Shown here piece by piece: positions 1 through 686 of a DNA stretch of 686 nucleotides. The notes below the pieces were generated by a model, which was not told the DNA's origin, searched no databases, and worked only from the letters and a program-made list of their open reading frames with translations. Source of the DNA: Escherichia coli (GTDB taxonomy: Bacteria > Pseudomonadota > Gammaproteobacteria > Enterobacterales > Enterobacteriaceae); NCBI RefSeq assembly GCF_003334815.1, contig NZ_QOWO01000122.1. The stretch is one strand, 5' to 3'. A program made the translations under genes and the position numbers. Numbering within the stretch: the stretch's first letter is position 1; each line of letters opens with the position of its first letter.

Positions 1-686
1 CTCTCCCGCACCTACAGCAGTTACCGGACAAAAACGCCCGCGCCGGTGGGGAGCCTCGGCCCCGGCTGGAAAATGCCTGCGGATATCCGCTTACAGCTGC
101 GCGATAACACACTGATACTCAGTGATAACGGCGGCAGAAGCCTGTATTTTGAGCACCTGTTTCCCGGTGAGGACGGTTACAGCCGCAGCGAGTCACTGTG
201 GCTGGTGCGCGGCGGCGTGGCGAAACTGGATGAAGGTCACCGGCTGGCCGCACTCTGGCAGGCGCTGCCGGAAGAACTCCGCTTAAGTCCGCATCGTTAT
301 CTGGCGACAAACAGTCCGCAGGGGCCGTGGTGGCTGCTCGGCTGGTGTGAGCGGGTGCCGGAAGCGGATGAGGTGCTGCCTGCGCCGCTGCCGCCGTACC
401 GGGTACTGACCGGGCTGGTGGACCGCTTCGGGCGCACACAGACGTTCCACCGCGAAGCCGCCGGTGAATTCAGCGGCGAAATCACCGGCGTGACGGATGG
501 TGCCGGGCGTCACTTCCGGCTGGTACTGACCACGCAGGCGCAGCGGGCAGAAGAAGCCCGGCAGCAGGCCATTTCCGGCGGGACGGAACCGTCCGCTTTT
601 CCTGATACCCTGCCGGGTTACACCGAATATGGCCGGGACAACGGCATCCGTCTGTCTGCCGTGTGGCTGACGCACGACCCGGAATA
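1..686 (+). CDS. rhsD: Rhs family core protein (YD-repeat polymorphic toxin), internal fragment of the conserved N-terminal region; partial at both ends
   Basis: Seen in sequence: frame +1 is open over the whole window (228 codons, no stop; last complete codon 682-684). About three quarters of the first 40 codons end in G/C, typical of a real GC-rich gene. Recognised from memory, not a database search: blocks such as LSRTYSSYRTKTPAPVG, SRSESLWLVRGG, SPQGPWWLLGW, VLPAPLPPYRVLTG, GEITGVTDGAGRHFRLVLTTQAQRAEEAR and IRLSAVWLTHDPEY match the N-terminal conserved region of E. coli-type Rhs core proteins, about residues 74-301 of a roughly 1400-aa protein by my estimate. The true start would then be about 220 bp upstream and the stop more than 3 kb downstream. 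The symbol is tentative: residues look closer to what I recall of the RhsD/RhsE subfamily than to RhsA/B/C, but I cannot verify this without an alignment. Family-level confidence is high; paralog-level confidence is about 0.5. Confidence 0.9.
414..421 (+). other. Chi octamer (5'-GCTGGTGG-3'), the RecBCD recombination hotspot motif of E. coli and relatives
   Basis: Seen in sequence: exact GCTGGTGG at 414-421 on the + strand, embedded in codons G-L-V-D (ggG CTG GTG Gac). Established knowledge: this octamer is the Chi site recognised by E. coli RecBCD. Its relevance depends on the host being E. coli-like and on orientation relative to replication, which cannot be determined from this window. The confidence value is for functional relevance, not for the sequence match. 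Confidence 0.4.

What the first reader, a model, noticed from the sequence alone, without database searches (positions are those of the whole stretch)
1..686. High GC content (about 65%), consistent with the compositionally atypical Rhs core
My hand count gives 444 G+C in 686 bp, about 65%. If the host is E. coli or a close relative (genome about 51% GC), this is far above background. That matches the established observation that Rhs cores are GC-rich (about 62%) while their C-terminal tips are AT-rich, which has been read as evidence of horizontal acquisition of the core. If the host genome is itself about 65% GC, the observation carries no signal.
Basis: partly seen in the sequence, partly recalled or inferred. 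Interest (0 to 1): 0.25.

Follow-up and report, generated by a model that had tools for sequence, protein, structure and literature searches.

The report
GC-rich piece of E. coli Rhs core
The window is an internal piece of the E. coli rhsC/rhsB toxin-shell gene; it really is about 65% G+C in a roughly 51% G+C genome, but this is the long-known odd composition of Rhs cores, so the finding is correct and ordinary.

Summary
The count is exact: 444 G+C in 686 bases, 64.7%. The window is 100% identical to nucleotides 220-905 (codons 74-301) of E. coli K-12 rhsC, and to rhsB or "RHS core" copies in about 3,900 complete E. coli genomes.

- **Against the host:** the K-12 flanks are 51.7% GC. None of 602 flank windows of 686 nt reaches 64.7% (maximum 60.8%).
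- **Predicted GC drop:** the core is 61.3% GC (GC3 0.715) up to the PISNIDPLGL motif. The tip is 41.3% (GC3 0.31) and the next gene, ybfB, is 31%.
- **Source of the excess:** about half comes from amino-acid composition and half from G/C-ending synonymous codons, including the host-rare CGG, AGG and GGG.
- **Family-wide or not:** Rhs genes in distant hosts roughly track host GC, from 36% to 71%. Enterobacterial cores exceed their hosts by 5-19 points.
- **Age:** the locus is collinear in E. albertii, so acquisition is not recent. Polarised substitutions run net GC to AT, which fits a slowly decaying GC-rich ancestry.

Verdict: observation confirmed, interpretation supported, with the caveat that horizontal origin is old and only inferred. 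Already known; low interest.

The parts
1..686 (+). Internal part of the rhsC (also rhsB) open reading frame, codons 74-301 of the 1397-codon gene; 64.7% GC, GC3 0.728. No start or stop codon lies in the window.
   Evidence: Frame +1 is open throughout. 100% identity to K-12 rhsC at locus L001 20001-20686, with the gene at 19782-23975. NCBIfam RHS_core E=3e-137, model positions 74-309.
1..150 (+). Codes for the C-terminal part of the DUF6531 domain (RhsC residues 74-123), the N-terminal element that precedes the Rhs repeat shell.
   Evidence: Pfam DUF6531 matches window protein residues 1-50, E=8.9e-7. In RhsC the domain spans residues 46-123, E=4.8e-18.
28..342 (+). Segment whose product aligns to residues 33-145 of the solved Rhs toxin Tse5 of Pseudomonas aeruginosa, at the start of the Rhs cage.
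   Evidence: phmmer against PDB sequences: 8cp6_B, E=2.7e-9, query residues 10-114.
151..686 (+). Codes for RhsC residues 124-301. No Pfam family covers this stretch, which lies upstream of the first recognised RHS repeats (weak at residues 318-351, significant at 361-392). It holds the GC maximum of the core, 68-72% in 100-300-nt windows.
   Evidence: Pfam scans; composition profiles.
414..421 (+). Chi octamer GCTGGTGG. Incidental and not needed to explain the GC content, but relevant to Rhs cores as recombination substrates.
   Evidence: Exact match, 0.07 expected in shuffles of the window. A second co-oriented Chi lies in the core at L001 22214. The whole 40.7-kb locus holds 13, the usual E. 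coli enrichment.

Best explanation
The window is coding sequence from the conserved core of an E. coli Rhs polymorphic-toxin gene (rhsC, identical here to rhsB copies). It encodes the end of the DUF6531 domain and the first strands of the YD-repeat shell, which in solved Rhs proteins encloses the variable C-terminal toxin.

Its 65% GC has two roughly equal sources.
1. Amino-acid composition. Arg, Gly, Pro and Trp are enriched, and Lys, Ile, Asn and Met are depleted. This alone would give about 59% GC with host codon choice.
2. A strong preference for G/C-ending synonymous codons. GC3 is 0.73 against 0.58 expected. The preference includes host-rare CGG, AGG and GGG, so it is not the bias of highly expressed E. 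coli genes.

This synonymous bias is shared by enterobacterial Rhs cores down to 58% protein identity, but not by Rhs genes of low-GC hosts. It is therefore best read as inheritance from a GC-rich ancestral lineage that is only slowly decaying toward host composition (inferred).

The sharp GC fall at the PxxxxDPxGL motif exists because tips and immunity genes are swapped in from a separate AT-rich pool by recombination at that motif. The boundary is shown; the exchange mechanism is taken from the literature.
For: - **Identity and family:**
- **Domain placement:**
- **Decomposition:** window GC is 0.649 observed, 0.594 expected with host synonymous usage, and host CDS is 0.533. GC3 is 0.728 observed against 0.581 expected. 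For host genes, observed minus expected GC3 has mean -0.01, sd 0.043, maximum 0.055.
- **Codon table:** CGG is 26% of Arg codons against 11% in host genes, AGG 7% against 1%, GTG 67% of Val against 39%. Core against host chi2 is 340 on 41 df.
- **Enterobacterial homologues:** the same segment is 59-68% GC against 52-55% flanks, with tips at 36-39%.
- **Distant Rhs genes track host GC:** Bernardetia 36/30, Acinetobacter 42/35, Nostoc 43/42, Methylomonas 51/54, Streptomyces 68/71. Cronobacter (63.5/48) and Rahnella (67.6/49) show the large enterobacterial excess.
- **Residence:** E. albertii is collinear from the kdp operon to the last base of the DPLGL motif. Core identity is 91.7% against 89.5% for flanks.
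- **Net GC to AT change in both lineages:** implied equilibrium GC3 is 0.46-0.64, below the present 0.715. With unanimous outgroups, S>W against W>S is 15:8 in E. coli and 29:7 in E. albertii.
- **Junction:** core 61.3%, tip 41.3%, ybfB 31.2%.
- **Literature:** G+C-rich core and A+T-rich tip, tip displacement, and an ancient family (PMC2935791).
Against: - No donor lineage was identified, so GC-rich ancestry is inferred from composition only.
- The polarised counts are small. Parsimony in GC-rich sequence over-counts GC to AT changes, and bacterial mutation is AT-biased in general. No matched control on host-typical genes could be run, because no outgroup sequence was available for the kdp flank.
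- At window size the general codon-usage chi2 (87) is not exceptional: 6 of 68 host blocks are at least as high. Only GC3 and the whole-core test separate it from host genes.
- The host sample is 26 neighbouring genes, not the whole genome.
- PMC2935791 reports that rhs genes of one clade in different genomes differ in base composition. That implies some adaptation to the host rather than a fixed foreign signature.
Confidence: 0.8

Rival explanations
1. The GC excess is purely a protein-level effect. The repeat shell needs many Gly, Arg, Pro, Asp and Trp residues, whose codons are GC-rich, and nothing about origin is implied.
For: GC1 (0.69) and GC2 (0.52) are raised as well as GC3. With host codon choice the window would still be 59.4% GC against 53.3% for host CDS, about half of the excess. 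Low-GC hosts also show a +6 point offset of Rhs repeats over flanks.
Against: GC3 is 0.728 against 0.581 expected from the same protein with host codon choice, about 3.5 sd beyond host genes. It exceeds all 68 host blocks. For the whole core, amino-acid composition explains only about 3 of 8 points.
Confidence: 0.1
2. The core was recently transferred into E. coli from a high-GC donor and has not had time to ameliorate.
For: Atypical GC3 and use of host-rare codons. ISAs1 transposase remnants and AT-rich accessory genes lie directly downstream. Only 3,886 of 5,426 genomes carry a close copy.
Against: E. albertii carries the orthologous core at the same position next to kdp. The alignment is collinear at 90%, and core divergence (8.3%) is similar to flank divergence (10.5%). 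Diverged enterobacterial paralogues are all GC-rich. PMC2935791 concludes that the family is ancient in Enterobacteriaceae and that some loci predate E. coli.
Confidence: 0.05
3. The high GC is actively maintained. Either GC-biased gene conversion among the multiple nearly identical cores does this, or selection does, for example to keep the core free of H-NS silencing or to preserve recombination homology.
For: Cores are multi-copy, with a median of 3 places per genome, and near-identical, so conversion is plausible. Chi sites lie in the core. GC-richness persists across paralogues as low as 58% identical.
Against: Polarised changes are net GC to AT in both E. coli and E. albertii, and the implied equilibrium GC3 is below the present value. 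From those counts the relaxation time is about 12 times the depth of the E. coli / E. albertii lineage (own calculation and 40 counts). Passive persistence is therefore sufficient.
Confidence: 0.05

Closest known systems
E. coli K-12 rhsC (RhsA/B/C/F subfamily; Clade I of Jackson et al. 2009, PMC2935791)
   Same: 100% nucleotide identity over all 686 bases. Same reading frame, same GC-rich core and AT-rich tip architecture, and the same PxxxxDPxGL junction downstream.
   Different: Nothing differs. The window cannot by itself be assigned to rhsC rather than rhsB, because both annotations occur among the 100% matches.
Serratia marcescens Db11 clade II rhs (SMA1610), described in PMC2935791
   Same: Core G+C well above tip G+C (67.7% against 46.4% in the paper; 61.3% against 41.3% here), with a low-GC trough extending downstream and orphan core-fragment/tip modules.
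   Different: Different clade and host. Absolute GC is higher, in a higher-GC host.
Pseudomonas aeruginosa Tse5 Rhs toxin (PDB 8cp6)
   Same: The window's product aligns to the N-terminal region of this solved Rhs cage protein, E=2.7e-9, residues 33-145.
   Different: Distant sequence, and only about half of the window's product aligns. The host there is GC-rich, so its composition is not atypical.

Membership tests
Rhs element core protein (NCBIfam NF041261 RHS_core; E. coli RhsA/B/C/F type) | Sequence match to the curated core model above its cut-off | tested here: met
   The window fragment gives E=3e-137 and 459 bits over model positions 74-309; a fragment cannot reach the 2000-bit cut-off. 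Full RhsC from the identical K-12 locus scores 2683.5 bits over model positions 1-1261.
Rhs element core protein | YD / RHS repeats | tested here: met
   TIGR01643 YD_repeat E=9e-41 in RhsC. Pfam RHS_repeat at RhsC residues 361-392. Both lie outside the window; no repeat model matches within the window itself.
Rhs element core protein | Core ends at a PxxxxDPxGL motif, followed by a variable C-terminal tip | tested here: met
   PISNIDPLGL at RhsC residues 1238-1247. TIGR03696 Rhs_assc_core at residues 1170-1247. E. coli / E. albertii homology stops exactly at the last base of the motif. The tip has no Pfam match.
Rhs element core protein | GC-rich core with AT-rich tip and downstream gene | tested here: met
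   Core 61.3%, tip 41.3%, ybfB 31.2%, flanks 51.7%. The same pattern holds in E. albertii and Citrobacter youngae.
Rhs element core protein | Multi-copy, near-identical cores within one genome (rearrangement hot spot) | tested here: met
   11,970 places in 3,886 genomes, median 3 per genome; 3 in K-12.
T6SS PAAR-Rhs effectors | N-terminal PAAR domain and an adjacent vgrG/T6SS gene | tested here: inconclusive
   PAAR_motif matches only weakly, E=0.18, at RhsC residues 2-20. No vgrG or T6SS gene is annotated within 20 kb of K-12 rhsC.
Horizontally acquired gene (compositional definition) | Codon usage and GC3 outside the host range | tested here: met
   GC3 excess of +0.15 over expectation against host sd 0.043. 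Whole-core chi2 is 340 on 41 df. At window size only GC3 is outside the host range, not the general chi2.
Horizontally acquired gene (phylogenetic definition) | Absent from syntenic position in sister taxa, or phylogeny discordant with the species tree | tested here: not met
   Present at the same position in E. albertii, with divergence like that of the flanks. Any older transfer is not testable with these data.

The most novel reading that the evidence does not exclude
The GC-richness of enterobacterial Rhs cores is not a passive relic. It is held up by GC-biased gene conversion among paralogous cores or by selection on DNA composition, for example to escape H-NS silencing, which would explain its persistence across paralogues only 58% identical. 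The net GC to AT substitutions seen here would then be partly a parsimony and mutation-bias artefact.
Probability: 0.07. Interest if true: 0.35.

Novelty: already known. Interest (0 to 1): 0.08.

Why it matters
It matters little. The GC-rich core and AT-rich tip of Rhs elements have been textbook features since the Hill laboratory's work of the 1990s, and they are restated in PMC2935791. What this check adds is mostly book-keeping:

- About half of this window's excess is amino-acid driven.
- The window lies on the GC peak of the core.
- Rhs composition is not constant across bacteria; the large excess is seen in Enterobacterales.
- The rhsC locus predates the E. coli / E. albertii split and appears to be decaying slowly toward host composition.

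For annotation pipelines, one practical point follows. An atypical-GC flag on this region should not be read as a sign of recent transfer.

Tried and rejected
- **Chance fluctuation:** rejected. None of 602 flank windows reaches 64.7%.
- **Host is itself GC-rich:** rejected. The host is E. coli and the flanks are 51.7% GC.
- **RNA gene or regulatory element in the window:** no Rfam match at E up to 1 and no promoter-like site. Two overlapping weak terminator-like hairpins at 577-594 lie inside the ORF and were set aside as probable chance.
- **Antisense genes:** the long minus-strand ORFs (130 aa at 283-675, 106 aa at 119-439) are what GC-rich coding DNA produces and were not pursued.
- **Genome-wide cross-species scan:** it returned only 10 loci, all Enterobacteriaceae or contaminant contigs. 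The host-GC range was too narrow, so I widened it with a tblastn search of plasmids.
- **Primary Hill-laboratory paper (PMC107404):** not held, and one call failed on a short search term. Two other papers from the search had nothing on core composition.
- **General codon-usage chi2 at window size:** not discriminating. Only GC3 and the whole-core test are.
- **Control for the polarised substitution test on the kdp flank:** not possible, because none of the outgroup loci is syntenic there.
- **Formatting and file errors:** searches failed for these reasons and were rerun.

Full report
**Observation.** The window holds G 232, C 212, A 126 and T 116, so G+C is 444 of 686, or 64.7%, exactly as counted by hand. 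Local GC in 100-nt windows ranges from 54% (positions 101-200) to 72% (positions 301-450). Frame +1 is open from end to end, and the other five frames are interrupted. GC by codon position is 0.69, 0.52 and 0.73.

**Identity.** The window is 100% identical to E. coli chromosomes.
- 3,886 of 5,426 complete genomes have a match, 11,970 places in all, with a median of 3 per genome. These are annotated rhsC, rhsB or 'RHS element core protein'.
- In K-12 MG1655 the window is nucleotides 220-905 of rhsC, locus L001 20001-20686 with the gene at 19782-23975, in frame as codons 74-301.
- The translated window matches NCBIfam RHS_core at E=3e-137, model positions 74-309. Full RhsC scores 2683.5 bits against a cut-off of 2000, and also matches the YD-repeat and Rhs-associated-core models.
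- Pfam places DUF6531 at RhsC residues 46-123, so window codons 1-50 encode its C-terminal part. The first recognised RHS repeats lie at residues 318-392, downstream of the window.
- The window's product aligns to residues 33-145 of the solved Pseudomonas aeruginosa Rhs toxin Tse5, PDB 8cp6, E=2.7e-9.
- No Rfam family and no promoter-like site is present.

**Is the GC unusual for the host?** Yes.
- The 31.4 kb of K-12 sequence flanking the Rhs element is 51.7% GC.
- 602 overlapping 686-nt flank windows have mean 51.8%, sd 4.8 and maximum 60.8%.
- Twenty-six flanking genes have GC3 of 0.45-0.65.
- GC3 of the window (0.728) exceeds all 68 window-sized blocks of those genes, whose maximum is 0.671.
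- The window sits on the 5' GC plateau of the core: 686-nt windows over the first ~1.1 kb of the gene are 65-66% GC, mid-core falls to 58-59%, and the 3' third is about 62%.

**The predicted GC drop.** The PxxxxDPxGL motif is PISNIDPLGL at RhsC residues 1238-1247, L001 23493-23522.

| Region | GC | GC3 |
|---|---|---|
| Core up to the motif | 61.3% | 0.715 |
| 453-nt tip | 41.3% | 0.311 |
| Next gene, ybfB | 31.2% | 0.303 |

A second, smaller GC peak and drop follow at the orphan core fragment and ybfC (L001 24332-26418), followed by AT-rich ISAs1 remnants. The tip has no Pfam match.

**Where the excess comes from.** I re-encoded the window's protein with the synonymous codon frequencies of the 26 flanking genes (8,686 codons).
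- This gives an expected GC of 59.4%, against 64.9% observed and 53.3% for host coding sequence. About 6 of the 11.6 points come from amino-acid composition and about 5.5 from synonymous choice.
- For the whole core the figures are 56.1% expected and 61.3% observed.
- Arg, Gly, Pro and Trp are enriched in both the window and the core; Thr, Tyr and Asp are also enriched across the core. Lys, Ile, Asn, Met, Val and Ala are depleted.
- Observed minus expected GC3 is +0.147 for the window and +0.149 for the core. Host genes have mean -0.01, sd 0.043 and maximum +0.055.
- Core codon usage differs from the host pool: chi2 is 340 on 41 df, and size-matched resamples of host codons give at most about 64.
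- Host-rare codons are over-used. CGG is 26% of Arg against 11%, AGG 7% against 1%, and GGG 21% of Gly against 15%. GTG is 67% of Val against 39%, and Ser AGY is 76% against 45%. This is not the bias of highly expressed E. coli genes.
- At window size alone the general chi2 (87) is not exceptional, because 6 of 68 host blocks are as high. The window-scale signal is specifically GC3.

**Is ~62% a constant of Rhs cores?** No. In Enterobacteriaceae relatives found in reference genomes, the segment homologous to the window is 59-68% GC against 52-55% flanks, and tips are 36-39%. This covers E. albertii (96% protein identity), Pseudocitrobacter (80%), Atlantibacter (71%) and three Citrobacter youngae paralogues (58-69%).

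Distant Rhs genes on plasmids and megaplasmids give these values for the repeat region against local flanks:

| Host | Rhs repeat GC | Flank GC |
|---|---|---|
| Bernardetia | 36% | 30% |
| Acinetobacter | 42% | 35% |
| Nostoc | 43% | 42% |
| Methylomonas | 51% | 54% |
| Burkholderia glumae | 68% | 61.5% |
| Ralstonia | 71% | 64% |
| Streptomyces | 68% | 71% |
| Cronobacter | 63.5% | 48% |
| Rahnella | 67.6% (GC3 0.83) | 49% |

Rhs composition therefore broadly follows the host, with a small positive offset attributable to the protein. The large excess is seen in the Enterobacterales sampled. PMC2935791 reports 67.7% against 46.4% for core and tip in Serratia marcescens, and describes the E. 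coli core as G+C-rich and the tip as A+T-rich.

**How old is it?**
- The E. albertii contig aligns collinearly to K-12 from speF/kdp through the entire rhsC core: L003 1-13522 against L001 10019-23522, 90.1% identity.
- The alignment ends on the last base of the DPLGL motif. Beyond that point the tips are unrelated.
- Core identity is 91.7% and kdp flank identity is 89.5%. The core has therefore been at this site since before the species split and has diverged like its neighbours.
- This agrees with PMC2935791, which calls the family ancient and places some loci before the origin of E. coli. Recent transfer into E. coli is excluded for this locus.

**Direction of change.**
- I polarised E. coli / E. 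albertii differences with Pseudocitrobacter, Atlantibacter or C. youngae as outgroup. GC to AT changes outnumber AT to GC changes in both lineages with every outgroup.
- At synonymous third positions the counts are 21:7, 25:18 and 20:7 in E. coli, and 19:11, 41:23 and 28:11 in E. albertii.
- These counts imply an equilibrium GC3 of 0.46-0.64, below the present 0.715 and near host values.
- Requiring at least two unanimous outgroups gives 15:8 in E. coli and 29:7 in E. albertii.
- From the per-site rates the relaxation time is roughly 12 times the depth of the E. coli / E. albertii lineage (my calculation and 40 counts). A GC-rich ancestry could therefore persist passively for a very long time.
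- Caveats: the counts are small, parsimony over-counts common-to-rare changes in biased sequence, bacterial mutation is AT-biased generally, and I had no outgroup for a control on the kdp flank.

**Conclusion.** This is the known compositional signature of the E. coli Rhs core, with the known AT-rich tip downstream. 'Horizontal acquisition' should be read as an old GC-rich ancestry, inferred and with no donor identified, together with a protein-composition effect of similar size in this window. It should not be read as recent transfer. Nothing here is new to specialists.

Noticed in passing
window 414-421 (+); also L001 22214-22221 (+): A Chi octamer GCTGGTGG lies in the window, and a second co-oriented one lies later in the rhsC core. 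The whole 40.7-kb locus holds 13 against 1.5 expected from shuffles, so this is the normal E. coli Chi enrichment rather than something specific to Rhs.
   Followed up: partly
window 283-675 (-) and 119-439 (-): Long antisense ORFs of 130 and 106 aa starting with GTG. This is what GC-rich coding DNA with few stop-codon opportunities produces. No evidence of genes was sought.
   Followed up: no
window 577-594 (+): Two overlapping terminator-like hairpins (5-bp stems followed by CGCTTTTCC) lie inside the ORF; 2 were found against 0.3 expected in shuffles. They are weak stems and probably chance.
   Followed up: no
L001 23522 / L003 13522: E. coli / E. albertii homology across kdp and the rhsC core stops on exactly the last base of the PISNIDPLGL / PLSKIDPLGL motif, and the tips beyond are unrelated. 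This is a clean natural example of C-terminal tip replacement at the motif.
   Followed up: partly
L001 24332-26418: Downstream of rhsC-ybfB lie an orphan core fragment (GC peak 61-65%) with its own AT-rich tip and ybfC (36.7% GC), followed by ISAs1 transposase remnants (39-41% GC). This matches the 'dissociated tip' arrays described in PMC2935791.
   Followed up: partly
L002 (Oscillospiraceae MAG, 2.7-kb contig) and L009 (Rheinheimera sp. A13L, 553-bp contig): Short contigs in unrelated assemblies encode 99%-identical copies of the E. coli Rhs core segment. They are most likely E. coli contamination or mis-binning in those assemblies.
   Followed up: no
plasmid records NZ_CP069827.1 (K. pneumoniae, 2,340 bp), NZ_CP069930.1 (K. 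oxytoca, 2,724 bp), CP061233.1 (E. coli, 1.0 Mb 'plasmid'): Two very small 'plasmid' records match the Rhs core: the match spans essentially the whole K. pneumoniae record, while only the last 156 bp of the K. oxytoca record match. A 1-Mb E. coli 'plasmid' carries three Rhs places. These are probably assembly artefacts of a repeated element, though PMC2935791 proposed circular intermediates for rhs exchange.
   Followed up: no
rhsC core, L001 19782-23522: Serine is encoded 76% by AGC/AGT in the core against 45% in flanking host genes. This codon-usage signature is not explained by GC content.
   Followed up: no
L001 19782-19841 (RhsC residues 2-20): The PAAR motif matches only weakly (E=0.18), and no vgrG or T6SS gene is annotated within 20 kb in K-12. 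The delivery route of K-12 RhsC is therefore not evident from this locus.
   Followed up: partly
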